The notes beneath the pieces were generated by a model. It ran no database searches. It was given only the letters and a program-made list of their open reading frames with translations, and was not told the DNA's origin. A program made the position numbers and the translations under genes. Below are positions 1,551 to 50,421 of a stretch of DNA of 64,000 bases, piece after piece; the first letter of the stretch is position 1, and each line of letters begins with the position of its first letter. The stretch spans positions 24,862,001 through 24,926,000 of the forward strand of contig CM120642.1 of NCBI GenBank assembly GCA_051362555.1, given 5' to 3'. This stretch comes from Lingula anatina (taxonomy: Eukaryota; Animalia; Brachiopoda).

Positions 1551-9884
<8,334 letters not shown>

Positions 9885-17963: not shown

Positions 17964-19632
17964 AAAAACATAAAATTTAAACCATTTAACTGTTGCTCGT
18001 AGCGCCATCTCACACTCTCCAATCTAATGTATGTTTCAGAAAATGCCTTTGTTTATGTTCATTTTAAATAACACAATAATTAGATCGCCGCTACGTTCGC
18101 GGTGTCACCTGTCTTTTAAAATTGAAAAAAAATCTTGCGGTCTTTTGCTGCAGGTCATTATTTTTGGTTGTTTAATGTTTTTGTAATATTTCAGCCATTT
18201 AATGAATCTTAAGTTATATCCATGATTAACTAGACGATATGATGACAGGACACAGTTAATAGTTATAGTCGAAACTGCATTTTCATAGACAGTAATTTGC
18301 AAAAAATTCGTTAACAGGTGAAAAATATACTTGAAGTTGAGAACAAAATGTACCAGTAAAATAAATGTGCATCTCGTAACCCCTTCAGAGCAGTCTAATT
18401 TTTGTTAGTATGAATAACGTACGAATATTATCCAAAATGATTGTTTTTTTAAACCTTCTTTACTGAATACGAAAACTTTCCATGCTAGCAAGGCATGAAT
18501 CGGAAAAAGATTGCATTATTACGCAAAAAGCTAGATTTATCACTTTCTGTCACAATAGGTTTAGAAACAGTAGAATACGCGACCCCCTCCTTCTCGCTAC
18601 TCGACTCTCCAGGTAGAAAAACGTTTCACAAAAAAACGTCACTGTCAAAGCATGTTTAGGTAGTTCTACACCACATGTTCGTTACGTCACTCCCTTAAAC
18701 CCCTCTCCAATTTCGATTTCAGATAGTCATTCAGTAGGCCTAACAGACAAAATTATATGTCAAGGTGTTCTGGTCAATACATGCCTAGATATAAAATTTT
18801 TGAAACTGAACAAGGTGACCGTGATCAAGTGTCATAAAGCTTACATTACAAACTTGCGCTGTTATTAGATGGCTTTTTAAAAGTTAAATTAAATTTATTC
18901 TATATTCTAATTTATTCTATATTGAATTAAAATCTTTCGTTCTACGTATTAAAGTTTGGAAATTATTTTTGTTTATTTTGTGTGTGTGTGTGGGGAGGGG
19001 GGGGGGTTGAGGGCGGTAAAAATAAAAAGACCCCACAGAATCCGCCCCTGAATATAGTCTATTCAAATGAATATCTAATAAATAGCAGTGGCTGACTAGT
19101 TGGTCACTGTTTTCCCCCAAAAAACTCCAAGGTGGGCGAGAGTCGGGATCGCATCCGAGGCCTGTCATTCCTGAAAAGTCGGACCCCCCCTTCAAATAAT
19201 CCTGGAGCCGCCCCTGAGACCTGGACATAAGCAAGCCTAATTTGCACCGAAGACTCACTCACTGTGTCTTTTTGAACAGAATGTTCCTTTTATAAATTTC
19301 TTCAAAATTCAATTCTACCTTAAGATATAACTTATAGAAAAGCATACATGTAATACAACATTAACAAGGCTAGCTTGATTTGCACCAGGAAATTGCTCAC
19401 TGTTTCTTAATTTAGACATTATGTTGAAATTTTGTTTGTTAAAAAACCAATATAAAAGAATATTAAAATTACCACAGGAAAGGAAATTAATATATAACCA
19501 AATAAACGGATTGCACAACAGGATTTTATCATGTGATTAAAGCTGTTGTTTTATCAGCACCGTCGTGAGGGTGTTTCGCAATCAACTTCTATATTGTGTT
19601 TGTTGAGATCGTCGCCGTGTGTAGAATATGAT

Positions 19633-19714
19633 CCAATCAGCTGCAGCTTATTATTCAGTCCGGCGACCTAGAAAAGCACAAAAACAACTGGGGCACAACA
19701 CAAGCCGCCATCTT
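19633..19714 (+). promoter_or_regulatory. Flotillin-1 proximal promoter motifs (CCAAT, Inr-like TCAGT, YY1-like GCCGCCATCTT)
   Basis: CCAAT at 19633, TCAGTC at ~19655 and GCCGCCATCTT at 19704-19714, in a locally CpG-rich patch just 5' of the ATG at 19746. Confidence 0.45.
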
Positions 19715-19745
19715 AACGTAAGAGAGGGGCTTTTGCGATTTAACC

Positions 19746-22700
19746 ATGGTGTTCGAAACTTGTGGGCCCAACGAGGCCATGGTTGTTTCAGGTAAGTAAT
19801 AGTTTCTCCAGGGTTATGTGTATGATCATGAATTTTTAGTAAATATATTCAAAAGTAGATAGATTGCAGAGAACTTTTGGAGAAGTGCCCTGCCCCTCCG
19901 ATTTTGCAACAGGATGGGTCTTTCGCAATAACATCTGCAATGCATTTTTTCCAACAAGTGCAATAAACAGACTGCAAATTCATATTGATCTTCATCATTT
20001 GTAATTTTTTTTTGTCAAATAAGAGCCTTTGATATCGTTTTCACGTTTAACTTAATGTATAAATCACTAGTAGATGAATTAATTATGTTAACGAGTAACG
20101 TTCTGTTGTTATTGAATTTTGATAGAGCTACCTACTCGTACTGTATACAAGTTATTTTTAAACTGTTTATTGCCTGCATGTTTGCGAATATTGTATATAA
20201 TCATAAGCATGCTCTTTTCCACCTATATTGTCTTTAAACAGACCCTTTTTGCATATCCTCCTCTGACGGAAATGGAAAATTGTGAAATTCTTTTCACTTC
20301 AAGCTCCTCAGAGAGTAGTGGGTTCAATGTCATGACATCCACAGTCCAGTAACACTTTGTTTTACATCTTGCTGATAGATTGGTTGAACAAGTGCAAAGA
20401 GAACGATAGCAAAAGCCATTGCTTGTCATCTGAGCGAAACTGGACAGTTTAACATCTGATTTCAGTATGCTGTGTTTATCTGTGGCAGTTATTAAAACTA
20501 TTGATTTTTTTTTCTGGAACAATAATGATAACATTTATTGGTATTTCATCACTAGGCTGCTGTTTGAGTAAACCGTTTATAGTGCCAGGCGGCAGGGTCT
20601 GGGTCTGGCCTGGAATTCAGCAGTTGCAAAAGTAAGGGATTCTCATTGGCCACCATATTCGGACTGTAGCAGCCACGCAGCATGAGACTTGTGTTTTGTT
20701 TAATTGTTTCATGGCTTTTTTTATTGAGCATTTCCAATATATGTTTTTGTTTTTTTTCTGCTCCCTTAGTTTGATTTTTTTCACAAATTTTAATGTGAAA
20801 AAAATTTTGGATAAGATTTTTCTAGTCATTTCCATCATAAAGAAAAAAAAAACATTTCAACCAAAAAGCTTATTTCCAAAAGAAAAACAACCATGAACAA
20901 ATTAAAAACTTGTTGGAATTGTCTCCCATTTCATTTGCATTATAGGTTGTAAGTGCCACAGTTACTGTATGTTATAACATGGCCATTGGGGTAGCATTTT
21001 AGAAGCTGTATTAAGTTTATATGGCAGGAGTCAAAGGCAGAAATAAAAATTCATGTATGCTTCATAGACCATTTTGATTTTCTGATTTGACGTATTATTG
21101 GCCTCGGTTTATTATTGATTTAAAAAGATACTCTGTCAGCTGCAGTTTTTTGCTCTAGTCTATAAGTCTATAAGACTGATAAAAAAGATTTTTTTAAAAA
21201 TGGCATCTGCAAGTTAATTTTTTAGCCTTTGTTTAATATAATAATTAAGATGGGATTATTGTAAATTTCTGCCCCTGCTCACATATACATATATATATAT
21301 TTAAATATAGCATGCATGTTGATTTTGTTCTTATTCTAAAGCATGGGCTATGTTGTATTTATGATAGAGGACGGAAATTTCTTTCATTTACAGATGAACG
21401 TATATATCTGTTTTAACCTGCCCCAGTGGTTAATGTACTTACATATATGTAACAAATGGTAGTAGAAATATTGTTTTGCTTTCAGCAAAGCCCAGTGCTG
21501 CCACTTACCAGGCAGTGTTCTGCTTTTCATGTGTTTTATTTATACTGTACATCAGGATTTTCCTTGCAACTGAATAAAATAAAATTCTGTCAAGAATCAC
21601 TTTTATTTCTTTTATAAAATCAAATTTCAATAAATTTATGTTCAAATTTTCAAAAAATAACTAAATAGATAATAATACAAAAAGATTTTGGCAAAAGAAG
21701 ATTGGTGTCTACTTATCTCATTCTCATCCGCAGCTGTCATGAAACATTTTTATTACTTTGCCCATACTAGGCACCTGAATATAAATCTGCTTTCTGAAAT
21801 CAACTCCTGATGTACAGTAATCGCCAGCAGTAGTATTATAGTACACTTGTTTAGAGTGACATGGTGAATCAGTTTGTAGCATGTTGTTGTTTTTTGTTGC
21901 ACTTGTCTAGGCTGCTGTCATGGGAAACCAAGCATAATCCCAGGTGGGAGGGTCTGGGTGTGGCCTTGTATACAACAGTTACAGAGGTAAACCTGCTTAA
22001 CCACCAATTGATATATGCCACATTCATTTTCAGTGAGAAAATTTTTTTTTCGAGAAATTCATAAAATCAAAATATCAGAAAATTATGTGCAAATTTGCCA
22101 AAAGAAAAAGAAAAAAGAAATGAAAAAGTGACAATATAAAAGATTTTGGAAAGGAAAATTGATTGTATTTTCCTGTAAGTATTTTTTAGATTTTATCTCG
22201 GGTGTATGTGTTATTAGGTCTTATATCTGCAGCATATGCACATTTATTTTTTTCTTCATTATAAAAAATTATATTTTATTACCCAGTACAGCTAGAATCA
22301 AATTTACAAGTTATTTGTTAGAATTCCCTGATTTATAAAATGCCTGTGAATAGTCTTTTCACTAAAAATGAATGTTGGCAATAATATTGGGTCTTTATAG
22401 AGTTTGTAATTAATTTACATTTGTGATGTGATGTGTTTTGTTTAGATTATGTATTATTATATTCTAATTTGTTAAATACACGCATAATGACATATTAAAT
22501 TTAAAATTAAATTTTGGATACCTATTCTGCACTGAATTTGAATTTTTTTTAAATGTCTTGTTACTAGAAAATGTATCTATTTCTTATATTGCAATGTTTT
22601 CCATACATCGATGTATATTGCATTGTCAATTTTTGCACATAGTTTTTTAATGCTCATTGAAATGAAAGTTGAATTTAATACTTATTATTTATTCTTTAAC

Positions 22701-25700
22701 ATGTCTATTTGTTTTTATTAAAAGAGATTGTGGTATATTTGCTCTGGAGATTCACTTATCAACATAATTTTGTCAATTGCTTTATTATCATCCTTTATGC
22801 CCTGTCTTAGAATTAATGTTAGTTCAGGGGAAAACCAAAATAATATTGAACTTGAAAGTGTATTCTTGTGTGGAACACTATTTCCAAAACAATGTGTTCT
22901 GTTGGCCCCCTAAATTTGTCATTAAATATGATATAAATGTGGTTGAAGTGCTAAATTTTATGTTAATTTCCTCATTTATTTCATGGTGAGTGTGAAATTT
23001 TGTTCCCACACAATCCCTTGAAATTTAGCTCATCCAGGTCGCATTTGATTTTTTATTTCCAAGTGACTATTTCAAAGAAAAGGAAAAAAAAATACAAGTG
23101 AAGTTTTCACTTTTCATTTCCATCTGCTGTTTCTTCAGAATATCTCTGAATATCATGACCTTGCACATCGAAACCCCACAAGTGTATACACAGGCAGGGG
23201 TGGCTATCTCTGTCACTGGGATAGCACAGGTAACACTGGCTTGCTCACACACTACTCTGACCCTCTAGACTGAATCAGATCTGAATGGAAAAACCGGATT
23301 GTAATCATGGAACATCTGCACAGCATAATTCCATTGAAGGAGATTTCCTCTGTTGATGGTAATAACTGGATTTGGGAGCGTTGTAAGGGCTCCCAACATG
23401 TCAAAACATGCCAGAAATGAGAGTCCTGATTCCATATAACTTATTTGAGAATCCTGCTGTTCAGATGCCAGCATGATTACAATATGTGGTGTTTTGAAAT
23501 TTAGATTGAATCAGTTTCGAGATGTCAGAGAGGACTGTGAATAGAGCCTGAGTTTTGGCCCAAGTTAAATTTGAACCCATGAACATGTGCATGATTTTTT
23601 TTCATTTTCATAAAGCATGTTTTAAGCATATGGTTTATTTACACCCCACCCCTCCCTATTTTACCTATCCACTATTTACCCTGAATGATTTCCCTGAATA
23701 TGAAAATATCAGTATTCCCTAAAATGCAAAGATCTGCTGCCAATGATTTTGACTAACCAAAATCGCATTTTTGTACTGATTCAAAATGGGAATGCTGATA
23801 TTGACGTATACTGTGAATTTATGCATGTCTCCGGGTTGGAAAGGTCAGAATTTCAGGTCATTTTAGCATTCTCAAGGAAGACAGGTAACTTTTTGGTGTT
23901 CAAGAATTGATGTTTTCTCAGGTTCAGGTTGTGTATATCCCACATTGATTGGTTATTGATTGGTTTTGATCAATTTATGATTTATAGACAAAATTATGTT
24001 CAGATGTAGAAGGTTGATAGAGACAAAATTCAAGAATGATTATTCACAACCCATCTGAGGAAACATCAAAAGACGGAATCTCAAGTCCCATTTATTTCCC
24101 CACTGTTTTAAAAAGTGAATCTTGGTTTTACCTGTAGAATATATCCAGTAAAATATTTCACTGAGGTCAGTGGGTGATCTACATTTCCCTAATTGGTTCA
24201 TTAGGTAGTAGTTAGCAAATCCGGTTCTAACATTTCTTTTTCTGCAGAATTAACCTGAACACCATGACCCTAAAGGTCACCAGTCCTCAGGTGTACACAC
24301 AGTTAGGGGTGGCAATCTCAGTCACTGGTATTGCACAGGTAAGGTTTTCTACAGGTATGACACTGTGCTATGTAACACACTAGCTGGGGCACACACTAGC
24401 ATGGTTTTCTTTTCAGCCACTAAGCTAAAAATGAATTACCCAGACCACATTTTTTGTGTTTAATCGTGACGAAATTGATGATGTTTTATTTGGTATTTTT
24501 GAAAGGTTTTGTGAACGGACTTATTTTAACGTTTGCTTGGTTGTTTTTAGCTATTGGTGAAAGTGAATCATGCTAATGCAAGCCCACACCAGTGTTGTGC
24601 ACGTGTGATACAAAGCGGTGCTTAGCACCCCGCCCTCCCCCCTTTTTTTTCTTACAAAAACTTGGTTTGCAGTTGTGTGGATTTTTGTCTACCTGTCACT
24701 ATGGTGTTATTTTTTTGTAATTCTCTGCTTCAGAATAACTCTCAACACAATGACTCTTGTAATAGAGAGTCCAAATGTGTATACCCAGCTTGGTGTTGCC
24801 ATTTCTGTAACAGGTGTAGCCCAGGTGAGAATTAGTTTTTTTTGTGAGGACATCACATGTTATTTATATGGGACCATTCAGAGTGAGAAGAGCCGAGTGC
24901 TAGCTAGGCCATGACCTAAATATGACGGACCTTCATGAAAGGAAGAACGCTTAATCCATGCCTTGTCCTTTGGTTGAATTGAGCCGAGACTTAATTACTG
25001 TGCCCCTGGAGGGATGACGCGTAAGGACGTGTGTGAGAGGTGGAGAGACCATTACGGGATTAAGTGGTCTTCTTTTCATGTAGGTCGGCCATATTTAGGT
25101 CATGGCCTAGCTAGCACTCGGCTCTTCTCATTCTGAATGGTCCCTATTGTAGACGAAACTTGATCTTGTAAAAAAGTAAAGTGAAGGGCCTTTGCAGTCA
25201 CTGCTTGGGTGGTGAGGAAAGTAAATGCATACTAACCCCCCCCCCCCACCCACCTATTCACCCACTATCAAGGGGAAGCAAATTTTCTATTCCTGATGCA
25301 TACGCTGTGACATGTTTCCAGAGTTTGTCCTTTTCTGAAGCGAACAGGATTAATATTAAAGCTGAAATTTTTCACAAAGTAAAGCTATTAAAAAATGAAA
25401 TGTTTATTTTAAAAAAATTACTAACATTTCTATTTTCGCTGTTTAAGGTAATTAACATTTGCATCAGTTAACCTGCAAACAATATCAATTATAATGGCTT
25501 CTCTGGTAACATTTTGTCTTTGAAAAACAAGTGTTGGGTAAAAAAAAGTTTGATTGTTAAAACTGGCCCAGTCTTCCCCAACCTCCCAAATTCACCTTTG
25601 TGTACTCAGATACTTTATAGACTGAATTCCGTACTAGCAATATGAAAGGTGAGTTGTATCAACATCTTAGAATTTGAAAATTGGGTGGGACAAATAATCA

Positions 25701-27142
25701 AAGAGCAGTGTATTTTTGCAATTTTTGAAGTGTTTTCCCTTTAAATTTATTTGAGTGCATTTTGGTGAAGAGTGCATTTTGGTGAAGTTTCTGGGTTCAG
25801 TTACAGTAACGTATTTATTTGAGTCTTTGACCTTCTTTAGAAGTCTTCAGCTGTAAGTTCTTCAAACTTAACTTGTAGATTAGACATTGTTGTACTTTAT
25901 TAATACCGTTCTCAGAAGTAGTATTGAGCACTGTAGTTGTCATTCGTTTGTACATAGTATTTGAGACATATTGTGTTGTTTTGTTTACTAGTAAGCCAAA
26001 TTTTTTTATATCAAAAAATATTAACAATTCTGGTTAAGGTCCAAAATGGTTGCCCTGTTTTGTTACTGACATCAGCTTAACTTAATAATATTTAAGAATA
26101 ATTTGTCTATAATTTATGTTTTGGTATAAGCCTCATTACTTCAAAACATAATTATTTAAAGTTACAGTGAGCATGATAAGCTACTAAATTACAAAACTTA
26201 TTTTCTCCCTCTTGAAATTGTGATTAATATAAAGGACCAGTGTTGTAAGCAGTAATATGTATTTTAATAAATCTTATAAATGAACAAAAATGATGAAATA
26301 AGTGAGCTATAAAGAATGTTATGGAATTCATAATTGGCATTGTGAATTTATATCAGTACTTGTAAATGACAAGATATTCCGCCTCATATCCAATCTCCTG
26401 TCTGTGTAACTCCAGGTGAAGATTCAGGGCGCCAACCGCGAGATGCTGGAGGCAGCATGTCAGCAGTTCCTGGGGAAAAGTGAGAATGAAATCCGCAGCA
26501 TTGCCCAAGAGACCTTAGAGGGTCACCAGAGAGCTATCATGGGAACCATGACAGTGGAGGTAAGCTGATATATCACCTGTTGGGGATCAATTCTGTGACC
26601 ATAATCTTGATTTAATCAATCTTGATCTTTTATTTCCTTTGCCCAGTGATAAAATTACCAGCATGATGTCTACGTGTTTACTTTTATGATGATATGGGAT
26701 TTCCTTGCTATATTCACACTATGTATTTCTTACAATTTCCCATTTTATAGTTTTTTAAGATTATGTGAATTTTAATCACAGATGTTCTGGGTGTAATTGG
26801 GATTCTGTGCTGAATTTTATTTTCAGCAAGAAAGTATGATTAGTATTGAGATTTTTTATGTTTAGAATGACCTGACTCTGAAATGTAAGAGTTATTATTG
26901 CAAGGTAGTTATTTTGCTGACTGCAAAGTCAACTTTTCAAAATGAATATTATTGTTAGAATTCTATATGTATGCAAACTTTAAAAGTTGATGGTTCCAAA
27001 ATTTCAGGAAATCTACAAAGACCGTAAGAAGTTTTCCAAAGCTGTATTTGAGGTGGCTTCGTCTGATCTTATCAATATGGGTATTAGTGTGGTGAGCTAT
27101 ACCCTGAAGGACATAAGAGATGACGAGGTAATGAAATCCCCC

Positions 27143-27193
<51 letters not shown>

Positions 27194-29950
27194 CACACAC
27201 CTGTTAAAATTATAAATATAGTATAGCCATCACCCCTGTAAAGTTAGCAAATATGTAAGAATAGATAGATCCCATTACAGAATTGTATATACACATGAAA
27301 TATTTTCAAAAAAAAAAAAAAAAAAACTTCTATAAGACATATCCAGCTGCTCATTTTGGAGCAGCCCCCTCAAGTTGTCTCATTCTAGGCTTACTTGAAA
27401 TCCCTTGGCCTGGCACGTACAGCAGAGGTGATGAGGGATGCTAGAATTGGGGAGGCTGAGGCCAAGATGGAGACTGTTATCAGAGTAAATGAAGGGCATG
27501 CTATATTGTTCTGCATGGATATGTTTCTCCTTCTGTGTCTTAGTGGTTAGGATTTTGGAGTGGTGATTATGCACTATTTGAATTTAAGGAAAAACTAGAT
27601 GGAATATTGTAATTGGGAGTCTTTGGTCAATTAAGTGGAAGTTTTGTCTGTATCTGACAGTTTGGATTACTCAAGTCATTACTGGTGAGCAAAATTACAC
27701 AACTTTGGATATTTTGGATTACTATGTTGACTAAGCTTTTCTTTAGAATACAACTTAGTTTGGTCATATATCATCCTAAAGGATTGCATATTTTGCACCA
27801 CTCTAAAATCTGACAAGCTTTGACATATTGTGAAGGATCAGTGTGTAGATATTTTTGTAGTTATTCCTTTTATTTACCCATTTATGTGGTTGGTGTTTTA
27901 GGGCTATTTGAAATCTCTGGGTATGTCAAGGACAGCCCAGGTAAAGAGGGATGCCAGAATTGGTGAGGCCGAAGCAAAGAGAGATGCAGGAATGAAGGCA
28001 AGTATGATCACTGCCAGTGTTATTGGCTGACCAAGTTAAGCTGTAAGTCAGCATCAGCTGTGGACCAAGCTGCTGAGTCAAGACTAATTCAATTCAAAGA
28101 CTAAGATTTGAATCAGTCGTAGAGATGCATGATAAAGTTGTTAACCTTTACAGTAAATGTCATTCTTAAGACCAACAGCAATTTCAAACACAAGACAATG
28201 GCATGGTTAAAACATTATGTTAACCCATTTTGTTTAATAAGCTTAGCCAGTTTAGTTAGTTTCTAGGGTGTGTTTATTGCTTGGTAGATGAAGTAAGATT
28301 TTTTATGCTTTAGCTGTTGAAAAAGTAAATTATTATAATTTATTGCATGAAGTATATGCAAGATATTAATATGTGTTGACAGTGTTGTCTTTAAAGTGTT
28401 TCTGCCTTGCTGTTTCAACTTTTCCCAACATAAAGTCAATTTTAATTCAATTTAAGTACATCTGATGAAGACATAATGCTTAAACAGTTCATGCTGTCTT
28501 TAATTTGGAATCATAACATCTTACCTGACTCAAAGATTACCTGAGCAGTCTGTTGACATTTCATCTTCTACATGGTTACAGGAAGCCATTGCCGAGGAGC
28601 AGAGAATGGCCGCCCGTTACCAAAATGACATAGAAATCGCAAAAGCCCAAAGGGACTTTGAACTGAAGAAAGCTGCCTATGACCAAGAAGTGCAGACAAA
28701 GAAGGCTCAGTCTGACTTGGCATATGAACTGCAAGTAAGTGGAGAGAGAGAGAGAAAATTGTATTGTAACAGATATTATGTAAATTGGTTCTTGCTGAAG
28801 GTTTGATATTGTATATGCAATTTGATTGCTAGGAGGAATTTGTCGTCAAAGCCAAGTTGAAGTTTTTACTGATAATCTGCATACATCTATTGACACAAAG
28901 GCCCATGGCAGTTCCCCTTTGTATCGTTGTTTTCAGCAAGTTTTGCCAAGTCTACAGTAGTTTTCACATTCTTCACTATGATTTGTAAAATATGAAAGGG
29001 GTTAAAAGGACATGTTTTGTCAGCAGTTACACAAATGTGTGCATTCTGATCAATGTATCTGTGTCCAATGTTACCAGGCCGCCAAGACCAAACAGCGCAT
29101 CAAGGAGGAACAGATGCAGATCAAGGTGGTAGAAAGGACACAGCAGATTCAGGTACAGCAGCAGGAGATTGTCCGTAAAGAGCGTGAACTAGAAGCAACC
29201 ATTCGTAAGCCTGCAGAAGCAGAGAAATACAGACTTGAGAGACTGGCTGAAGCAAACAAGTGAGTAATGGGACACATGCATGAAAATAGCCCCCCCCTCC
29301 TCCCTCCCCCATTCTCAATCAGGAGGTTAGGAGGGATATTAAAAGAATAATATTTAATTGGTGGATTAATTTGATCAGGAAAAAAGTCAGTTTTTTATTT
29401 ATTTATGTATTAAGTTAAGAAAATGAAATTAAAATGGCAAAATTATATCAAAGTGAAATTAAATACGTCATTTTTACAGGACACGGTTGAATACTTTCAT
29501 GTGACACAGTTAAATAATTTTGAATAATATCGTTACTTTTAGGAACCGGGTAATTCTGGAAGCCCAGGCCAATGCCGAAGCTGTTCAGGTAAAGATATTT
29601 CCAGTATAGCCAAGGAAGAATTTGAAACTGGTCACTTTTAACCTCATGTCAATTCATGTTGTGTAATCACTTTACCGGGTGGCTATATTTAATGCCTTCA
29701 AATTCTGCTGCAGTTCTTACCACAAAGAGAGCTATCGTATAATACTATTTATTACTGTCTTTGTGATTCAGGTGAAAGGAGAAGCTGAAGCTTATGCCAT
29801 TGAAGCCAAGGCTAAGGCAGAAGCAGAACAGATGGCTAAGAAAGCAGATGCCTGGAAGGACTACCAGGATGCAGCTAAAGTGGATATGGTGTTGGAGACA
29901 TTACCTAAGGTATTTTTGACTGTCTGCATTTGTCTGTGTCCGTGTGTGTG

Positions 29951-30018
<68 letters not shown>

Positions 30019-30848
30019 TTAGGTTGTAGAAGAATAAAGAAGATGCTTGAGTAAGTAAAGTAACTTTTTTCAACCTGTTAAAACTACAACTAATATGTCT
30101 TCAAAGTATTCTATATTAACAACCTCAAACCTTTCTGTAATAAACGAAGTTTGATTGTCAATGTTCTGTAATACTTCCACATTCTTGTTTTCATGTAATT
30201 CTTTGTTGAAAATATAGGTGGCAGCAGAAGTTGCTGCTCCTCTGGCCCAGTGTAAGAAGGTCACCATGGTGTCCAGTGGCAAGGGTGACGTGGGTGCTTC
30301 TAAACTGACTGGAGAAGTACTGGACATAATGGAGAAACTGCCTGGACTGGTCAAGCAGATGACCGGAGTGGACATTGCCAAGGTGGGTTGAAGACTTGTT
30401 TATGGTTCAGATGACAAGGGTATATTTTAAGGCATCTGTATCCTGTTTCTTTGAGATCTACATTGCCCAGGAAAGTCAATTGTCGGTCTGAGGTGTTAGT
30501 CTGGTTTTATTAAAGTGAGATGCATTAAGTGGAAGTGCCATTTTGTGATTCTGTGTGTTGTCCACCCATTTATAACAAGTGCAGATAAATTTGTTTATTT
30601 CCATGTTTTCCCCAGGATGTCTATTAATTTCTGTTACCTATTACTTAACATTTGTAATATAGTCAACATATTGGTAGTACATTGGTAATGTGCAAAAATA
30701 TTTCTAAAAATACCTGCACAAGGTGCATATGATCTGAAAGTGTTCACCAAGTAATTACAGTGCAGCAACATTAAAAAAATGTTAATTTATTCAGCTTTAA
30801 TTTTGACATTTGTTTTAATTTCAGACCATGCACGTGAGGCAAGTGTAG
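19746..30848 (+). CDS. FLOT1: Flotillin-1 (SPFH/band-7 + flotillin domain), 426 aa, 12 coding-exon positions
   Basis: Exons: 19746-19791; [20556-20631 | 21911-21986]; [23139-23229 | 24248-24338 | 24734-24824]; 26416-26559; 27008-27127; [27389-27484 | 27902-27997]; 28582-28734; 29078-29259; 29543-29588; 29772-29909; 30218-30382; 30825-30848. One exon per bracket gives 1281 nt in frame. Translation [16 protein letters not shown]...[10 protein letters not shown]...EIYKDR...[19 protein letters not shown]...[24 protein letters not shown] is typical flotillin-1. Confidence 0.97.
20556..20631 (+). CDS. FLOT1: FLOT1 alternative exon 2a (76 nt): [26 protein letters not shown]
   Basis: tag|GC...AA|gtaagg; same length and phase as 2b. 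Confidence 0.9.
21911..21986 (+). CDS. FLOT1: FLOT1 alternative exon 2b (76 nt): [26 protein letters not shown]
   Basis: tag|GC...AG|gtaaac; paralogous to 2a. Confidence 0.9.
23139..23229 (+). CDS. FLOT1: FLOT1 alternative exon 3a (91 nt): [30 protein letters not shown]
   Basis: cag|A...CAG|gtaaca. Confidence 0.9.
24248..24338 (+). CDS. FLOT1: FLOT1 alternative exon 3b (91 nt): [30 protein letters not shown]
   Basis: cag|A...CAG|gtaagg. Confidence 0.9.
24734..24824 (+). CDS. FLOT1: FLOT1 alternative exon 3c (91 nt): [30 protein letters not shown]
   Basis: cag|A...CAG|gtgaga. Confidence 0.9.
24870..25144. mobile_element. 275-bp palindromic MITE, PIF/Harbinger (Tourist)-like
   Basis: Termini GGGACCATTCAGA...TCTGAATGGTCCC, ~90-bp near-perfect inverted arms, and a 3-bp TAT duplication on both flanks. 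Confidence 0.85.
27389..27484 (+). CDS. FLOT1: FLOT1 alternative exon 6a (96 nt): [32 protein letters not shown]
   Basis: tag|GCT...AGA|gtaaat. Confidence 0.88.
27902..27997 (+). CDS. FLOT1: FLOT1 alternative exon 6b (96 nt, GC donor): [32 protein letters not shown]
   Basis: tag|GGC...AAG|gcaagt; closer than 6a to the usual flotillin-1 sequence. Confidence 0.88.
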
Positions 30849-32968
30849 ATGGCACTTCAAGAGGAGACCAAACCACAACAGAATTCAATAGCCACTCCCT
30901 AGTCATAGACGTTCACATACATGGAATAGAATTTTGTGTGAAGTTGTCATGTAAATTAGTGTGTACTTCATTCATGTTTTGAATCTTCTCCCTTTTTACC
31001 CTTGCAGTTCCAGTATCGTATTATGTACATAATTTTCATGCTGGGGTGGTACACTGTATTTCTACTCTGATATAGTACAAGTCTAATTGGAACTTTTGTT
31101 AGATTTGAGGAAGACAGTTGATGTTGTCTTTGTGGAGATTTTTTTTGCTGACTCTAATTTTCACTGTGAAAAAAACAGTCTTATGTTACTCAAGAATCAG
31201 ATAAAGAGGAATACACTTTTGAAACAGAGGTAGCCTTAATGCCTGAAGACATCATCCTACATAATTTGCTGGGGGACATGACCTCTGTAAACTGGAAGCA
31301 AGTTTTGGAATAGAAAAAGATCTTATGGATATGTTTTGTGTTGTATTACTCTGATTTGTTGAACTGCTACCTCTGTAGAACTTAGTGCCCAAAAGTACTT
31401 TTTTTTTACTATTAATGGCAGCATAACCATGCTTTATAACAGAATTTCATTTTGTCATATTAATTTTTTTCTTTGTAAATGAATGTTAAGGATTGTCAAT
31501 GTAGTTAATTTTTACAGAGGAACCACTTATTGCTCCAGTTTGAATGATATTTTATCATGTTTTCATAATAACATTGAGTAATTTTTACATTTTTTATGTG
31601 TAGAGTCCTAGTGTGAAGTTTCCTTCACTTTTATTTTTGTAATAATTCCCACGTAGTTCTAATTTACTCTCAACGTCACAGATTTGTAAATAATTTCAAC
31701 AACCTCCAGCTTTTATAATATTTGTCAAGATGGAGACAAACCACAAGAAAGTATTACCCCCTCACTATGTTCAATACACAGCACTGTACAAACACGAGGA
31801 GTTTATTTGAATCCACCATGAAAAGCAATATTTTTGCCATATTAGTTAATAAGCAAGGTATGTTCGAGTTCTCACAAACAATAAGTCTTCATATTTGCAT
31901 GTCTCTTTGTAGATGCAATGTACACAATTTGTTTCGTTTATCTATATTTTTCACCAAAATTGCCATAAAGTGGAGAGGTGTTTGTCGGCTTGCTATTTTC
32001 GTTACATTTCGTGTATGCCATGACCTTGTTGAGAGTAATGCAGTATTGTACATGTAATGGATATGTCGCTTCCGTCTTGGAATTGCTACCATTTGAATTG
32101 ATAAGTACAAGTCGTGCAAAAGTCGCATGAAATTGAATTGTCAGGAGTACTCAAATCATCTTATTATGGCAAAGTGTTACGAGCAGTGTGATGTCTTTTT
32201 GTAATTTTTTTTTTTCATATCTAATTTAGAAATACAAGGTGTGAACTTACATACTTAGATATTGACTATGAAATACCCTTCAGGGTACGAATATTATATA
32301 AGAAAGGACATTTCAAAGTTGATAGCTATTAAGGTGAAGATGTATCAATGTAATTAACGTATTCTTGTTTATGATATTCACATGGAATAAACCTTCTGTA
32401 ACTCCCCCAATTTGTCATGATATTTTTAAATATTCAGACAGTGTTACCTACATATACACGTGCCAAACAAAGCGTGCATCTGATGAATTGCCTTTTATAA
32501 CTATTATGAAAATTACAATGTTTTAAAACGACACAATACAGGGGAAAATCAGCGCAGGTTGTGACGATCAATGACGAAAAATTAATTTAAGGACTTGAGA
32601 AAATGTAATCCGAATTCTAAAGGCAGCAATGAACAGAACTTAAAAGTTTAAACAATTCAAAATTTTAAATAACATTGAAACTAACAGGAGTTATAAAATT
32701 TTCTTCAAGTGTAATGTATAGTAAACAAGAATTTCTCGTTAAAATACTATACATCCCACTAACTACTTCATTAAGTTGTCAATTTCATATTATTTGAAGG
32801 GTAAGATAAGATTTTGACACGTTAATATTTTAAGCGGTTGGCGCTCAATCGCAAGCTATCACTAGTAAACCTAGTGGACACAGAACCTTGTAAAAAGGCA
32901 ATTTGCGTTTTACGGCGAATGACCAAATGGCGTTACGGTGGCCTTATGGCATGTCTCAACAATCCAGT

Positions 32969-33086: not shown

Positions 33087-36000
33087 GATCCAATTTAGGA
33101 CATAGTTATCATAATCATGCACCTTTTCCTGACAGATAGGGTGGCATTTTTAGTGACACGACGCTATAAGAAATCAGCAACTGAATTTGTACGCAGATGA
33201 TGTGTTTAACACTGTACCTTAGGTATTATTGTTTCTTGGGAGAGTTTATCGTCCAGATTTTCATCCGTGTCAGTGCCACTGTTTCCTCTCAGCATAGCTC
33301 TGTCCGTGTCACTGTACACACCATCGGCGAAATAATTTAATACCGCAGCACGCCGAGGCTTGTCTGTCCTCAAAGACACAAACATCATTTGATAAGAATA
33401 TTATAAGGAGATGAGGCGTAACCTTTTCAAAGCAATTTTCAACTTACAGGCCCGTAGCCAGGGGGGTTCGGGGGGTTCGAAAGAACCGCCCCTTTTGCTG
33501 GAAAAAGGTCCACTCTGGGTAAAATTTGATCTACAGTAGGTACATGAAGTTTTTATGGGAAAAGGTCCACTTTTTCAGAAAAAGAACCCCCCTTTTGAAA
33601 TTGCTGGCTACCGGCCTGACTTAGATATCTCGTCATTAAAATTGAGCATCTAGGCATGTGTCAACAAGTACCAGAAGGCGATTCCGAGAAGTTGGATTGG
33701 TTGAAAGTATTTATCACGATTATTTCTACAATTAAAATGGTAACAAGTAAGAGATAATATTTTAGCCTAAATTGTATCCATAATGACACTATTACATGGG
33801 CAGTGACTTATTGAAATATTATGTGGAACAGTTACTCTGAAAATGACAAGCAGCGGAGAATATTGTTTGCAACATTGCAACGTTATCATTTCAAACACAT
33901 TCAGCAATCTGTACATTACGTTTACTTGTTATCATAAGATCCATGAACCGTCATAGCATTATGGAAACTGGCATGTCCTTTCTTTAACAGCGCGGGCACT
34001 GGCTTAAAAGCGGCCTTCTCTTCATCAGTTAGGATGGACTGAAACACAGTAAATGATGTTACCGTTTCCCCACGAAACACAATCGTCGTGAAAATTGCTC
34101 ACATGTGTGAAATTAAAAGAAGCAAGTAACATTTGTTTTAGGGTAGAGCCAACCAAACAATAGTTAAAATACATGTACTGTCACACTTAGCGTTTAGCAG
34201 TAGGCCTAATAGTCTGGTGGGAAGGAGGGGTTCACGTGCAACCCCGTGAAAAACAGTGGATACCTATATTTTCTTAACCCTTGATGTCTAAATTTTTGAT
34301 TTCTAGATGTTCCCAGAGTGAAAAAATGTCCCATGGGGTTTTAATTTAATGATATGTAACACCCTGTCGCTCAAATAACCGCATTTGAAATAATGGGGGT
34401 AGGGGAAGAAAATTATCTATAGTTTGCAATTTAAATAAGATATAAGAATGGTTTATATATCATTATGTAGGTAAAGGGTTGCTCTAAAAATACAAGTAAT
34501 AAAAGTTATGTAATACTGAACCATGTCTAAGTAAAATGGTGTCAAAGGTCAAATGAGGTCAAATTTGAGAAATTTTCAGAAAAATAAAGCAATAAAGTTT
34601 ATCTGTATAGAGAATGTGAGCCAACAACATACTTTTAAGGGTATATTTTATAAATCCCATCTATATTACAAATGTTTAATGGTCATTTGTGACTTAGTTT
34701 TACAGTTTGTGAGAATTATGATGGATATGATTAACGTATGGGAGTATCAGTTAAATTTCAGATCAGTGGGGGTAGGGGAAGAAAATCACTCATAACTTAA
34801 AATTTAAGTAAGATATAACAATGATTTATACATCATTGCAAAGCTAAAGGCTAGTTCTAAAAACATAAGTAATAAAAATTATGTAATGCTAAACCATAAT
34901 GGAGTAAATGGGGTCAAAGGTCAAATGAGGTCAAATTTGAGAAATTTTCAGGAAAATAAGCCAATATAGTTTACTTATTTAGAGGATTAGAGCCCACAGT
35001 ACATTTTAGAGTATTTTTTGTAAGTTCCATCAATTAAGCAAATGCAAAATGATCTATTGGTATTTAATTTTACAGTTTGTGGAAATTTTAATGGATTAGG
35101 ATTGGATTGATTAACATATGGGTACTGACACTATCATTTCAATTTCAGAACAATGGGAGTAGGGGAAGAAAATCACCCATAACCTAAAATTTAAGTTATA
35201 TACAACAATGATTTGTATATCATTGCATATCTAAAGCATTGTTCTAAACATTAAAGTAATAAAAGTTATGTAATACTGAACCATCTCAAAGTAAAAGGGG
35301 GTCAAATAAGGTCAAATGAGGTCAAATTTGAGAAATTTTTAGAAAAATAAAGCAATAAAGTTTATCTGTATAGAGAATGTGAGCTACCAATATACTTTCT
35401 AGTGTATGTTTGGTAAATCTATCTATATGACAATGCTTAATGGTTATTTGCATCTTAATTTAGTTTGTGAGAATTATGATGGATATGATTAGCGTATGGG
35501 AATATAAGTTAAACTTCAGATCAGTGGGGGTATGGAAAGAAAATCAATCATAACTTAAAATTTAAGTAAGATATAACAATGATTCAAATATCATTGCATA
35601 GCTAAGGAGTTCTTCTAAACACATAAGTAATTAAAATTATGTAATACTTAACAATTATGGAGTAAATGGGGTCAAAGTTCAAATAAGGTCAAATTTGAGG
35701 AATTTTCAGTAAAATAAAGCAATAAAGTTTATTTATTTAGAGGGTTAGAGTCCACAGTATGATTTTGGAGTATGTAGTGCAAATCTCATCTTTATAGCAA
35801 ATGTTTTATAATCTTTTGAGACTTAATTGTACATTTTCTGAGATTTATCAATATGGTGGGATGTGTAGTTCAATTGCCAAAAATGGGGGTAGGGGAAAGA
35901 AATTCATTAATAGTATAGGATTTAATTAAGATATGACATTGATTATACATCACTGTGTTGATAAAAGAGAGCTCTAAACATCTAAGCAATAAAAGTTGTG

Positions 36001-39000
36001 CAACATTGAATCATGGCTGAGTTAAAAGAGATCAAATGTTAAATAAGGTCAAAATTGAGACATCATCAGGAAAGTTGAATAGAGGTCAAATTTGAGTCAT
36101 TTTCTGGAAAAAAAACAATAAAGCTAATTATTTTACATAGCACTTGAACTTAGATTATGTTTCTTTAGGGTAAGTTGTCCGTTTCAATTATTTCATGAGA
36201 ATTTATTTTAAAGTTTGTTAATTTTAAAATGCATTTCTTACAGCAGAGGGGTTCAGCATAATTGCCAAAAATTGGGGGTAGGGAAAAATCTGTTCATAGT
36301 AGGGGATTTTAAGTAAGATGTGGCTATGATTTATGTATCATTCTGAAGCTGAAGGGTTGTTCAAAATACATCAGAAATAAATGTTATTTAAAATTGAGAC
36401 ATGGTGAGGCTTAATGGGGTGCAAGATCAAATTAGGTAAATTTGTAGGCATTTCTAGGAATGTAAACCAATACAATTTATATTATTTATACTTGACTTGA
36501 ACCTAAAATATGTTTTTTAGACACATGTCCATCCCTATTACAAGGACTTGATGGAATATTTGGATTTTTTTACAATAAGTGAGTACTGCAGATGGGATCA
36601 GTTCAATTGCATAAAAAATGGAGACAGGGAAAGGACACCCATCATAGTAGGGAATTTGATTAAGATTTACCTTAGATATATCACTGTGCAGCCAAAATGT
36701 TGCTCATAACATATAAATAACACATTTTATGTAAACGTTAATCATATGTCTTCATAAAATGGGATCAAATGTTAAATGAGGTCAACTATGAGGCATTTGT
36801 AAGAAAACAAATAAAAAATATAGCAGTTAAATTCTACAGAGAGGAATATGATTTGTAGACTAAGATATATCTGGGATAGCATTAGCTATTTTTTTTTTTT
36901 TCGCTTAGCCAAATCACCACATTTTTGTCAATTTGTTACCAAAATAGATATAATTTGGCTAAAACATGTCAAATCAAGCCCTTTTTCTTTAGCCAATTTA
37001 AGTCAGTTTTAGCAGTTGGCTAAAATGGCGAGTGCTAGCACTACCCCAGTATATATATATATTGGTTAAGTTCATATGTTTTACAATGATTTGATGGGGG
37101 TATGTGAGTTTATTTTACAGTAGGTGAGATATAAAACCTACTATACAAGCACTGCAGATGGGTTTAATTCAATTGTCGGGGAAAAAAACGGGGGGAGAGG
37201 AGAAAAATCCATATCATTTGATATTTATTCTTAAAACAAAATATACAGTATACTCCTACATTACTTAAATGCTTAGAGGGACCATTCAGCAACACAATGA
37301 TATATAAACTATAGTTATATCTTACTTAATTCCCTTACTATTAATGATTTCCTTCTCCTAGCTGCCCCCATTTGTGGGCAATTGAACTAAGATCCCCCTA
37401 CAGTACATATACTAATAAGTTGTATCATTCATAAATATCAGAAACTCTAAAATAAAGTATTTAAACACCATGAAATTTTTGTACCAAAAATTTAATTTAT
37501 CAAAGATATCCAAAAATCCTAATTTGAACTCATGTTCTCTGAATAAAGAAACTTGACTGCTTCATATATGAGTCCTCATTTGACAGTTTTCCCCTTTTTA
37601 CACAGACATCATTCAATTTTACATAAAATTTGCAATTTAAATGTTTAGAACAACCCTTCAGGTATATTATGATATACAAATCACAGTTATACCTTACTTA
37701 GAATACCTCCTATGAGTGATGTCCTTTCCCTGTCCCCACTTTATGGCAATTTAACTGAACACTTCTAAAGTACTGGTATCAGACATAGATCTAAATGCTG
37801 TAAAATGAATTCCCGAAACCCTGTTAAATAACTAAGATTTAAACTGTATTTACCAATCATACTCTAAGAAAACATTTTCTACGTTCAATATTTCTGCTTA
37901 AAGAAAAATTCTATTGGGTGATTTCTTTTTTTTTTTTTTTTTTGAAAATGACTCAGTTTTGACCTTATTGGACCGTTGACCACCTTTAACTCAGCCACGT
38001 TTCAATGTTACTTAACTTTTATTATTTATTGGATGTTTAGAGCTCTCCTTCAGCAACATAATGATATATAAATCAATGTCATATCTTAATCAAATCCTAT
38101 ACTAAGAATGATTTCCTTCCCCTACCCCCATTTTTGGCAATTGAACTTAACACACCCCCCAACCTTTATTGTATCATTCATTTTGATAAATCTTCCAAAA
38201 TGTAAAATTAAGTCTCAATAGACCATAAAACATTTGCTATATAAATAGGATTTGTACAATTTACTCCAAATATATACTGTGGGCTCTTATCCTCTAAAGG
38301 AACAAACTTTATTGGCATGTTTTCCTGAAATTTTCTTAAATTTGACCTCGTTTGACCTTTGACCCCATTTTACTCCATAATGGTGTAGTATTACATAATT
38401 TTATTACTTATGTGTTTAGAGGAACTTCTTAGCTATGCAATGATATTTGAATCATTGTTATATTTTACTTAAATTTCAAGTTATGATTGATTTTCTTCCC
38501 CTACCCCCACTGATCTGAAATTTAACGGATACTCCCATATGCTAATCATATCCATCATAATTATCACAAACTGTAAAACTAAGTCACAAATGACCATTAA
38601 ACATTTGTAATATAGATGGGATTTATAAAATATACCCTTAAAAGTATGTTGTTGGCTCACATTCTCTATACAGATAAACTTTATTGCTTTATTTTTCTGA
38701 AAATTTCTCAAATTTGACCTCATTTGACCTTTGACACCATTTTACTTAGACATGGTTCAGTATTACATAACTTTTATTACTTGTATTTTTAGAGCAACCC
38801 TTTACCTACATAATGATATATAAACCATTCTTATATCTTATTTAAATTGCAAACTATAGATAATTTTCTTCCCCTACCCCCATTATTTCAAATGCGGTTA
38901 TTTGAGCGACAGGGTGTTACATATCATTAAATTAAAACCCCATGGGACATTTTTTCACTCTGGGAACATCTAGAAATCAAAAATTTAGACATCAAGGGTT

Positions 39001-39498: not shown

Positions 39499-42400
39499 TT
39501 ACTCTATCAAAAACTTAATGTAGACTTGAAATCCTCACTTTAATTCCCTCCATGTCCCTAAAACTGTGGTCCAACACCGGGAATGGGTCGCCATTCCTCG
39601 TCCACCTAGGTATAAGAGTTACACATTTCAGAGTTTAAATATGTTGCAAGCACGTCTCAAACCGCATTTAGACAGTTTCAATTGTAAAGGTGTAAATCTA
39701 AACTTCGCTTGATTGCACACCCACCCACCCACCTCTCTGTAATCCGTCAGTTACATTATCCCGATCCCCTGCCGGTTCAGTTTGCTGATCCCTTTATTTG
39801 GGGATTACTTTTGGGATTACATCGAATAATTTCTACTTCTTCGACTAACTACTAGGAGTAACTTTCTCAAGTTAAAACTAGAAGAGTTTATCTTTTAAAT
39901 TGTCTAAACACGGCGTCACTCATATAGAGGTCAACCTGTGTGATCCAGGCACGTATTGAATACAGCCATTCTCCTCCGTCTGGTCGTCCAGTGCAATGTG
40001 GACCTGCATAGGAGATAATGCATGAATATAAAATGATTTGCACTGTTTATTACTCACTTATGCTTTTAAGATGTAGATCTCTTCATAGAAAAGCTATCAT
40101 GTCTGGCACATTAAATTTTTTACATCTCCATGCATCATATCATAATGTAATATACAGGGTTGCTACTTAATATGGAATATTTTTTATCATTGTTATTTTT
40201 GAGTGCTGATTGAATTTTTTTTGGCTTGAATCATTAAAAAAGTATGTCACTGAGTGATAATAACATCCAGTCTTCTGTTGTGAGATATTTTGGTCAATAA
40301 TATCAAATCTGACATTAGGTGCCATTCAAAAGAAAGGAACACCCCCAGAAAACCATATCAACAGTTTGATGTCAGTATAAACTTTAAGATAAGATATTAA
40401 AGAAAATGATAGCCTCCGGACAGTGATATGTTACACAGACAAAGAACTCACTACAGTAAATCATGAAAAGTCAGTAATTGCGGGTATGACCTCCAGCAGC
40501 CGCTTGCAGCGCCCTCATCCCACATGGCATACCCTGTGACACGTTTTTTAGAGTTTTGGTGGGGATTTCATTCCACACAGTGATATTTGCCTATCGCAGT
40601 TTATCACTATTTACCGGCCGAGGACCCTGGCTATTAATTCTGTGAGTTACATCCGCCCACAGATTTGCAATTGGGTTCATATCTGGAGAGTTTGCATGCC
40701 AGGGCAGTTGCTGAACACATTGGTTTTGAAGAAAAACAGTGATTCTGCGGCCTCGATGTGGGGTTGCGCAGTCGTCTCGGTACACAAAGTTGTTCCTGAA
40801 GATGACTCTTACCAATCGAAGCATTGTTTGCTGTATAATGTCTCTGTAGGAATCCTGGATGAGGTTGCCTCCTAGAAAAACCAACTGGTTCTGGGCACCG
40901 ACATGAAATGCTCCCGAAACAGAGACGTTACCATCCCCTGCTTGCACCCTAGGCAGTACACAATCATTGTTTTATGCCCCTCGTACACGTCCGTGGACAC
41001 GGATTCGATGATCAACCCTAAAAAATCCATATCTGGCCTCATCACTGAAAACGACGTGATTCCAGTGTTTTGCCTGCAAAAGCACGTGGTCCCCAGCCCA
41101 TTGCAGACGTTGCTGTATATGACCTGCTGTTAACAGTGGTTTTTCTACTGGCCTTCGTGCAAAATAACCGGCTTGCAGAAATATCTTGTTCACGTGGGAC
41201 CTTGAAACGGGCGTTTGAAAGACATTCTGCCTCTCTTTTCTGAGGACACTGGTTTTCTTTGTACGACCAGCACGGCGTCCTCTAAGGAGATGGCAATCCT
41301 GTCTTCTTGGTGTGATACGCGGATACCCTGGTCGAGGTATTGGAGTAGGTGTCCCTGTTGCAGCATTTCTTTGGAGGACATCACAAACGGTTCCTGATAA
41401 ATGTTGAATTACCTGGCAATGGCTGTCCGTTTCTGGTCATTTTCTCTGAGAGCAAGAATCCCATAGTAAGCTGCGTTGCTTAGCTGTCGAACCATATCTT
41501 CATTAAGGTACCTGTCAAGTTTCAGAGCGATCCCTTTGTTGCTTCTCTAAACACACCTCAAAGATTGACCAAACCCATGGGTTTTTATACAATGGCAGAA
41601 ATTGCCGAAAAGACCACCCCTCACATTTCTGACCACAGTACATGCAACTGCATGCATCAATTGTTTCGAGAGTTGTGTGGTAATGAGGTTACACACCTGG
41701 CTACGCATGGAGTGACACCTCAGCTTTGGATTTAAAGTAGTTAGAGAGAAATTAAATATTTTGTAGAAAATTTACTCGCCAAAAAAGAATATTCCATATT
41801 TAGTGGTAACCCTGTAAATATCATAGAATATTTTGGGGTATGTTGGAACAACACGTAGCTCTAGTATTTTCCATAATATTCCTGCAATGCTAAGTTTATT
41901 TTATTGTTTTTATTGCATAACATTTCATGAACTCATTTGAAAATTGTTCGGTCTGAATAAAAACCTTTACCATCTTTTGCCGTCAAAAGCTGCTCTGCGG
42001 GACCTCGAATTTCGTTGATTTTTTTTACAAATAGTTTTATGTCACAACTGGTGTTTCTGTGTTTTAAAAAAGTCATATTTAATTTAGCTGTCTAAATTGA
42101 TGAAATTGTCGCATTGGCATGATGGAAATTTATTTACGAGTGGAATATGACAGGGTGTAGAACGAACTTAAGTGTTTTGAAAAATGTATGTATAATACTC
42201 TTACCGTTATGTGCTTCATTGGCTTTGTTCTCACCCAGTAGGAATAGTCTTGGTGCCTTATAAATAAAATATATAGAGTCTCATACACGTATATTTCCCA
42301 ACGTATAAAGGCTTCTTTAATATAGAAAATATTTCAATAAGTGCTATTATACAAATGTTCATATTTGATGAAATATTTATAGCTGAAATGAAGATTTTGA

Positions 42401-50000: not shown

Positions 50001-50421
50001 GCAGTTGTCTCCTAAAAGGTTTTTGAAAACAAAGGTCTTTATAAAGTGGTATAGTATGTTCCTTTTCCTTAAGTTAGTATCTACCACAGGCAGTATCGAT
50101 AACCTGCTTAGATGGCATGTATTGTAGGCCTTCAAGCAGTGTTAACAGCTGACCACCATAAAATCTGCTCTAACCCCCCCCCCCCCCCCCGCCCCGTACG
50201 AGTTTTATGTTAAGTCGACGTCGTCATAATTAGTGGTTTAACTTGTTCCAAACTACTTAAATTACTTTGTTTCGACTTCTTAACGGTTTTTAAATACTTG
50301 AGCAAGTGATGATTATATCAACTGCTTAAATACCTTAAAGTGTAGTTATGGTTTTAATGTGACCATGAGTGTATCTAATTTTGTTACAGGATCTAATAAA
50401 ACTGACAAACCAACATTAAAG

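What the first reader, a model, noticed from the sequence alone, without database searches (positions are those of the whole stretch)
20556..27997. Flotillin-1 has three clusters of tandemly duplicated, mutually exclusive exons (2x3x2 = 12 isoforms)
Seen: exon 2 occurs twice (76 nt each), exon 3 three times (91 nt each) and exon 6 twice (96 nt each). Every copy has intact splice sites, identical phase and an open frame, and copies differ heavily at third codon positions, which suggests purifying selection on all of them. Known: equal length, same phase and homology define mutually exclusive exon (MXE) clusters, as in Dscam and myosin heavy chain; flotillins assemble into membrane-bound oligomers through the SPFH domain. 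Inference: a small combinatorial isoform code for the membrane-facing SPFH1 region and the start of the helical region. I do not know of a 12-way cassette described for flotillin-1, and automated annotation would probably collapse it.
Basis: partly seen in the sequence, partly recalled or inferred. Interest (0 to 1): 0.85.

Follow-up and report, generated by a model that had tools for sequence, protein, structure and literature searches.

The report
Swappable exons in brachiopod flotillin-1
The flotillin-1 gene of the brachiopod Lingula carries side-by-side copies of three exons, and RNA reads show it choosing one of two and one of three copies in proportions that differ between samples (the third swap was not seen spliced), which likely lets one gene fine-tune this membrane-cage protein, much as human flotillin-2 swaps the same exon.

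Summary
The anatomy is real. Exon 2 occurs twice (76 nt), exon 3 three times (91 nt) and exon 6 twice (96 nt). All 12 combinations are open, and dN/dS between copies is at most 0.18. The gene matches Lingula anatina flotillin-1. Reads from 8 RNA runs show 2a/2b and 3a/3b/3c used one at a time, with strong sample shifts (3c 10-93%) and about 2% leakage.

Exon 6b has a GC donor. Exon 6a showed no junction among listed rows against 604 reads for 6b, so 12 isoforms are possible but not shown. Exon 3 lies in SPFH2, not SPFH1.

New here: gene models of molluscs, a nemertean, an annelid and amphioxus swap the same exons. Human FLOT2 has a catalogued mutually exclusive duplicate of the same 91-nt exon. 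Exon 2a/2b toggles the residue matching the Cys34 palmitoylation site. I found no paper on the flotillin-1 cassette, and no earlier scan note on it.

The parts
19746..19791 (+). flotillin-1 coding exon 1 (ATG, 46 nt)
   Evidence: junction reads to 2a and 2b
20556..20631 (+). exon 2a, minor copy; Gly at residue 35
   Evidence: 1-to-2a 25 of 326 reads; RefSeq X4-X6
21911..21986 (+). exon 2b, major copy; Cys at residue 35 (human Cys34)
   Evidence: 1-to-2b 301 of 326 reads; RefSeq X1-X3; alignment
23139..23229 (+). exon 3a
   Evidence: 79 of 524 reads out of 2b, 0-65% by run
24248..24338 (+). exon 3b
   Evidence: 136 of 524 reads out of 2b, 0-51% by run
24734..24824 (+). exon 3c
   Evidence: 309 of 524 reads out of 2b, 10-93% by run
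26416..26559 (+). constitutive exon 4
27008..27127 (+). constitutive exon 5
27389..27484 (+). exon 6a, intact AG/GT copy, unannotated, not seen spliced
   Evidence: open frame and dN/dS 0.09 against 6b; no listed junction; no protein with it found
27902..27997 (+). exon 6b, used copy, GC donor; carries Tyr161 (human Tyr160 hinge)
   Evidence: 604 reads join it to exon 7
28582..30848 (+). constitutive exons 7-12 (28582-28734, 29078-29259, 29543-29588, 29772-29909, 30218-30382, 30825-30848)
   Evidence: 0 mismatches to RefSeq X1-X6; junction reads

Best explanation
This is the Lingula flotillin-1 gene, whose exons 2, 3 and 6 are present as old tandem copies; splicing picks one exon-2 and one exon-3 copy in sample-dependent proportions, and the equal-length proteins likely differ in how the flotillin cage grips the membrane and packs at its base, while exon 6a is likely a rare, restricted third switch. 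Shown: the copies, open frames, selection between copies, one-at-a-time use of 2a/2b and 3a/3b/3c, the sample shifts, and a low leak. Inferred: (a) the shifts reflect tissue or stage regulation (run labels are coded); (b) because exons 2 and 3 are 3n+1 long, double inclusion or skipping gives early stops (shown) and nonsense-mediated decay would remove the leak; cluster 6 is 3n long and needs another means of exclusion; (c) 2b supplies and 2a removes the cysteine palmitoylated in human flotillin-1, so 2a protein would be less firmly anchored; (d) exon-3 copies keep the core residues and vary at a hairpin tip and strand faces of SPFH2, and exon-6 copies keep the hinge tyrosine and vary around it, so they would tune subunit packing or partner binding rather than fold.
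For: Junction reads 2b to 3a/3b/3c by run: X1 5/0/66, X2 7/1/70, X3 5/0/46, X4 17/18/19, X5 39/15/6, X6 4/39/43, X7 2/36/32, X8 0/27/27. The three runs of one study differ at p 5e-13 by reads and 6e-7 by distinct start places. 2a-to-3b 15 reads and 2a-to-3a 3 reads. dN/dS 0.18 and 0.09 where computable, synonymous sites saturated in the other three pairs. Of 10 listed allele differences in alternative exons that I classified, 9 are synonymous. Same-exon swaps in gene models: exon 3 in 21, exon 6 in 16, exon 2 in 2, exon 5 in 4 of 59 species labels, 41 of which had two or more records. Human FLOT2 swaps the homologous 91-nt exon, with proteomic support and nervous-tissue specificity (supplement rows of PMC8373072 and PMC9741552). 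Residue 35 aligns with human Cys34, whose loss shifts flotillin-1 inside the cell in several lines (PMC7177705 passages). Tyr160, Val61, Ile63, Leu161, Leu164, Arg168 and Val172 form the hinge core (PMC13000311 section 8); none of the matching Lingula positions differs between copies.
Against: No functional or protein-level data for any Lingula isoform. Cys at residue 35 is uncommon in invertebrates (9 of 66 species-variants; Gly 28, Val 14), both exon-2 copies keep Cys17/Cys18, and PMC7177705 notes contrary reports on Cys34Ala localisation, so the palmitoylation switch may matter little. 2a-to-3c was not among listed rows. 6a: no listed junction, at most 1.0-7.7% by bin depth that includes intronic reads, no protein record above 84% identity among 807 candidates, and a long branch (0.42). 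Exclusivity leaks: 7 of 49 exits from 3a go to 3c. Sample differences could partly be between individuals or populations, since X7 and X8 carry many fixed differences.
Confidence: 0.62

Rival explanations
1. The copies are spliced one at a time but are functionally interchangeable. Each is kept under purifying selection only because its splicing signals have drifted to be used in some tissue, so the amino-acid differences are tolerated noise.
For: Most differences fall at columns that also vary between single-copy species. Copy number varies freely (exon 3: 2 to 6). Core residues are unchanged.
Against: Two mollusc classes persist across gastropods and bivalves (exon 6 K168/E172 class one side of a branch, 93/91). 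The same exon is duplicated and tissue-specific in human FLOT2. The 2a/2b change hits a known lipidation site.
Confidence: 0.3
2. Exon 6a is a decaying pseudo-exon, so the real cassette is 2x3 = 6 and not 12.
For: No listed junction against 604 reads for 6b. Absent from RefSeq X1-X6 and from protein searches. Long end branch. Ala160 and Met174 occur in 0 of 120 homologous peptides (one later hit, P0381, has Met174).
Against: Intact AG/GT sites, open frame, dN/dS 0.09 with dS about 2. All seven invariant columns are kept. 16 mollusc labels use two exon-6 copies. Merged Batillaria and Mytilus models show the Glu172 copy upstream of the Gln172 copy, as in Lingula. Joints beside the repeat after exon 5 were dropped by the tool, and only 6-26% of each run was read. 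Pairwise dN/dS cannot show present-day selection.
Confidence: 0.3
3. The extra exons are an assembly artefact (uncollapsed haplotypes) or fragments of a second gene.
For: None found.
Against: Copies are 65-73% identical in DNA with unrelated introns. Reads join each exon-2 and exon-3 copy to shared flanking exons. True alleles in reads differ at only a few percent of sites.
Confidence: 0.01

Closest known systems
Human FLOT2 tandem duplicated exon substitution (ENST00000394908 / ENST00000585169; event 77 in PMC8373072 supplement; PMC9741552 supplement table S2)
   Same: Same 91-nt, 30-residue exon at the start of SPFH2, two homologous copies used alternatively; listed with proteomic support, as tissue-specific (nervous), age at least Chordata.
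   Different: It is the paralogue FLOT2, one cluster of two. Here it is flotillin-1 with three copies of that exon plus clusters at exons 2 and 6. FLOT1 has 0 occurrences in both supplements searched.
RefSeq annotation of Lingula anatina flotillin-1 isoforms X1-X6 (XP_013411693.1 = X1)
   Same: Exactly the six 2x3 combinations, 0 mismatches.
   Different: Lacks exon 6a; gives no usage levels, selection, leak or comparison.
Multi-cluster mutually exclusive genes Dscam1 and arthropod myosin heavy chain (PMC1397879, PMC2257972; search listing and abstract start only)
   Same: Several independent clusters of tandem homologous exons in one gene.
   Different: Far smaller repertoire with one dominant form per sample. 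No docking/selector pairing identified here.
Human flotillin-1/2 44-mer cage (PDB 9BQ2, 9L3G; PMC11260169, PMC13000311)
   Same: 66% identical chain, same domain order; hinge tyrosine and core residues conserved.
   Different: The passages read mention no isoforms ('isoform' 0 occurrences); no structure with alternative exons.

Membership tests
Mutually exclusive tandem duplicated exons | Adjacent homologous exons of equal length and phase | tested here: met
   all three clusters
Mutually exclusive tandem duplicated exons | Usable splice sites on every copy | tested here: met
   AG on 7 of 7, GT on 6 of 7, GC on 6b (used)
Mutually exclusive tandem duplicated exons | Each copy is spliced into mRNA (clusters 2 and 3) | tested here: met
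   junctions for 5 of 5 copies; 5 of 6 exon2-exon3 pairings seen
Mutually exclusive tandem duplicated exons | Each copy is spliced into mRNA (cluster 6) | tested here: inconclusive
   6b 604 reads; 6a no listed junction, with hidden and dropped rows
Mutually exclusive tandem duplicated exons | Copies not co-included or jointly skipped | tested here: met
   largely; 7 reads 3a-3c against 334 joins of an exon 3 to exon 4; 4 reads skip exon 2 against 326; no 2a-2b, 3a-3b or 3b-3c row listed (4 rows hidden)
Mutually exclusive tandem duplicated exons | Purifying selection on the copies | tested here: met
   5 of 5 pairs
Mutually exclusive tandem duplicated exons | Isoforms present as protein | not testable with these tools
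   no proteomics data
Dscam-type RNA-pairing cassette | Docking site with competing selector sequences | tested here: inconclusive
   no one-to-many pairing stood out among 190 inverted pairs (25 shown); one 15-nt pair within the 6a-6b intron (z -2.2); no related genomic DNA for covariation
Flotillin-1 | Band_7 plus Flot domains | tested here: met
   PF01145 and PF15975 above cut-off
Flotillin-1 | Closer to flotillin-1 than flotillin-2 | tested here: met
   596 against 395 bits; 66% against 48-49%
Flotillin-1 | Cys at the Cys34 palmitoylation position | tested here: inconclusive
   present in 2b, Gly in 2a; acylation itself untested; not conserved in most invertebrates
Flotillin-1 | Assembles with flotillin-2 into a membrane cage | not tested
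   inferred from human structures; no complex was predicted

The most novel reading that the evidence does not exclude
The exon-3 swap is a single ancient device, older than the flotillin-1/flotillin-2 split or re-invented at the same exon in both paralogues, and spiralians have built it into a combinatorial code (up to six exon-3 copies, plus switches at the palmitoylation site and the phospho-hinge) that gives different cell types flotillin cages with different membrane grip, cargo and disassembly, possibly mixed within one 22-subunit ring; all 12 Lingula forms exist.
Probability: 0.2. Interest if true: 0.72.

Novelty: new member of a known kind. Interest (0 to 1): 0.47.

Why it matters
Flotillin reviews and cage structures read here treat each subunit as one sequence. 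A natural panel of equal-length variants at the membrane-inserted, neighbour-facing and hinge segments, kept across several animal phyla, points to which surfaces of the cage are tunable and supplies ready-made variants to test what the cage selects or how it opens. It also gives a comparative handle on the human FLOT2 exon swap, which is catalogued but for which my searches found no functional study, and adds a case to the question why some exons are duplicated repeatedly.

Tried and rejected
No whole genome is held for this window, so other flotillin genes of this animal and genomic DNA of relatives could not be examined; cross-species evidence is from protein gene models only.

Trees of the 30-32 residue exons did not resolve origin. 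Exon 6: 6a with the mollusc K168/E172 class p-AU 0.52, 6a with 6b p-AU 0.48. Exon 3: one Lingula clade is 15 log units worse but p-AU 0.06. Rows were limited to selected named species (58, 39 and 57 rows).

A search with exon 6a plus 8 intron-encoded residues found no protein carrying it (best 84%, 137 hits of 807 candidates); the tool calls this weak evidence.

The single-sequence fold was unusable for residues 1-159; the 90-sequence fold was used for secondary structure only. No complex was predicted.

No docking/selector architecture was found. Steric exclusion is rejected: introns between copies are 395-1279 nt.

The joint '28735-29081 with 2 letters between' is read as an allele at the start of exon 8, not a second acceptor. 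The joint printed AG..AC is the GC-AG intron after 6b placed 2 letters off.

Paper searches for a description of this cassette found none: (listings and abstract starts only). PMC6429586 passages were uninformative. Subscription papers are not in the library, and bioRxiv supplements are closed, so a listing there cannot be excluded.
Full report
Observation. The window holds a 12-exon gene on the + strand from 19746 to 30848. All seven copies have AG acceptors; six have GT donors and 6b has a GC donor. All 12 combinations give 426 residues without an internal stop. No other exon has a second copy in the window. Differences between copies sit mainly at third positions; dN is 0.16-0.20, dS is 1.1 and 2.2 in two pairs and saturated in three.

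Identity. Exon 8 is 100% identical to six RefSeq proteins named Lingula anatina flotillin-1 isoform X1-X6. These are the six exon 2 x exon 3 combinations, all with 6b, at 0 mismatches. The protein has Band_7 and Flot domains and is closer to human flotillin-1 than -2. So annotation has clusters 2 and 3 and lacks only 6a.

Splicing. Eight of nine offered same-species RNA runs were laid, 6-26% of each run read. Out of 2b, 79, 136 and 309 of 524 reads go to 3a, 3b and 3c. Shares vary widely: X1-X3 about 90% 3c, X4 a third each, X5 65% 3a, X6-X8 half 3b and half 3c. The three runs of one study differ significantly even by distinct start places (p 6e-7). 2a joins 3b (15 reads) and 3a (3 reads); 2a-3c was not listed. 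Leak: 3a-3c 7 reads, against 334 joins of an exon 3 to exon 4, but 7 of 49 exits from 3a; exon 1-3c 4 reads from 2 starts. Such forms hit early stops (codon 16-123), whereas 6a+6b or skipping exon 6 stays in frame. Exon 6b joins exon 7 in 604 reads. No junction of 6a is listed. The tables show 15 rows (5 and 4 hidden; the weakest shown has 4 reads) and the exon 5-6 joints are missing, probably dropped beside a skipped repeat. Bin depth caps 6a at 1.0-7.7% and includes intronic reads. Tissue labels are coded, and X7/X8 carry many fixed differences, so regulation by tissue is inferred, not shown.

Relatives. I grouped named proteins by species. Of 59 labels (41 with two or more records; dropped: Centruroides and one Babylonia record as second genes, Macrostomum and Diaphorina as merged whole-gene models), records that are otherwise identical differ in a block matching exon 3 in 21, exon 6 in 16, exon 2 in 2 and exon 5 in 4. 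Exon 3: Lingula 3, the nemertean Lineus 6, the chiton Liolophura 3, Haliotis rufescens 5, many gastropods and bivalves 2-3, amphioxus 2-3. Exon 6: molluscs only. Exon 2: Lingula and the annelid Owenia (3). Exon 5: amphioxus only. Labels are not independent (three Haliotis, three Mytilus, amphioxus hybrids). The arthropod, echinoderm and schistosome labels with several records showed no such swaps. These are gene models; I could not see the DNA. Merged models show tandem order: in Batillaria and Mytilus the Glu172 copy precedes the Gln172 copy, as 6a precedes 6b; in Plakobranchus, Elysia and Mytilus the Asn55 copy of exon 3 is last, as 3c is. That hints at shared origin, but Glu/Gln172 also varies among single-copy species (54 and 64 of 120) and the trees do not decide.

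Mechanism. In the model built on 90 sequences, exon 2 gives a loop and two strands, exon 3 a hairpin (strands 47-57 and 63-74) and exon 6 the hinge and first turns of the long helix. Human SPFH1 is residues 1-43 and SPFH2 43-160 (PMC11775717 passage). So exon 2 is membrane-inserted, exon 3 is SPFH2, exon 6 is hinge plus CC1. 2a and 2b differ at five residues including Gly/Cys35, which aligns with human Cys34, the palmitoylated residue buried in the membrane (PMC7177705 and PMC13000311 passages). Against a strong reading: Cys is present in only 9 of 66 species-variants and both copies keep Cys17/18. Exon-3 copies vary most at residues 59-60, the hairpin tip (19 and 20 of 21 labels), and at 42, 50, 54, 55, while Lingula copies keep Val62 and Ile64. 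Exon-6 copies keep Tyr161, Leu162, Leu165, Arg169 and Val173; the human equivalents form the core whose phosphomimetic change abolishes assembly (PMC13000311 section 8). I infer tuning of anchoring, packing or partners with the fold intact (0.62); interchangeable copies are the main rival (0.3); 6a as a pseudo-exon is a separate open question (0.3).

Known. [quoted passage not shown] Supplement rows of PMC8373072 and PMC9741552 list human FLOT2 with two 91-nt copies of the exon homologous to exon 3, with proteomic support, nervous-tissue specificity and age at least Chordata; FLOT1, Flo1 and Flo2 had 0 hits. Six searches found no paper on a flotillin-1 cassette. What I saw: passages of PMC7177705, PMC11260169, PMC11775717, PMC9741552, PMC6429586; passages and section 8 of PMC13000311; supplement rows and listing only of PMC8373072. 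Earlier scan notes hold no flotillin case but several similar swaps in other invertebrate genes.

Verdict. A real, expressed, sample-variable mutually exclusive cassette of 2x3 with a likely third cluster, in databases but apparently undescribed for flotillin-1, widespread in spiralians and amphioxus, and paralleling a known human FLOT2 event. New member of a known kind; interest 0.47.

Noticed in passing
window 24870-25144: MITE-like inverted repeat (88-nt arms, 92% complementary) in the intron after exon 3c; reads from other copies pile on it.
   Followed up: no
window 27551-27565 and 27796-27810: 15-nt inverted repeat spanning the middle of the 6a-6b intron; the intron folds slightly better than shuffles (z -2.2, 1 of 100). 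Possible role in cluster-6 choice, untested.
   Followed up: partly
window 27998-27999: The dominant exon 6b uses a GC donor while the unused 6a has a GT donor, so site strength alone does not explain the choice.
   Followed up: partly
runs X7, X8 on window 19500-31200: Many fixed differences from the window, a few non-synonymous: a divergent population or cryptic species that uses the same cassette.
   Followed up: no
P0123, P0278-P0282; P0307-P0320; P0158, P0288, P0289: Lineus has six exon-3 variants; amphioxus also swaps exon 5; Owenia has three exon-2 variants that differ in cysteines at residues 35-36.
   Followed up: partly
window 50302-52953 and 56031-58541: Two tandem long open frames with TPR and CHAT (caspase-like) domains.
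   Followed up: no
window 61116-63110: Open frame with leucine-rich repeats and a Roc GTPase domain.
   Followed up: no
window 1525-2439; 40972-41436; about 34200-36800: An SH2-containing frame; a Tc3-type transposase fragment on the minus strand; a degenerate repeat array seen by eye downstream of the gene.
   Followed up: no
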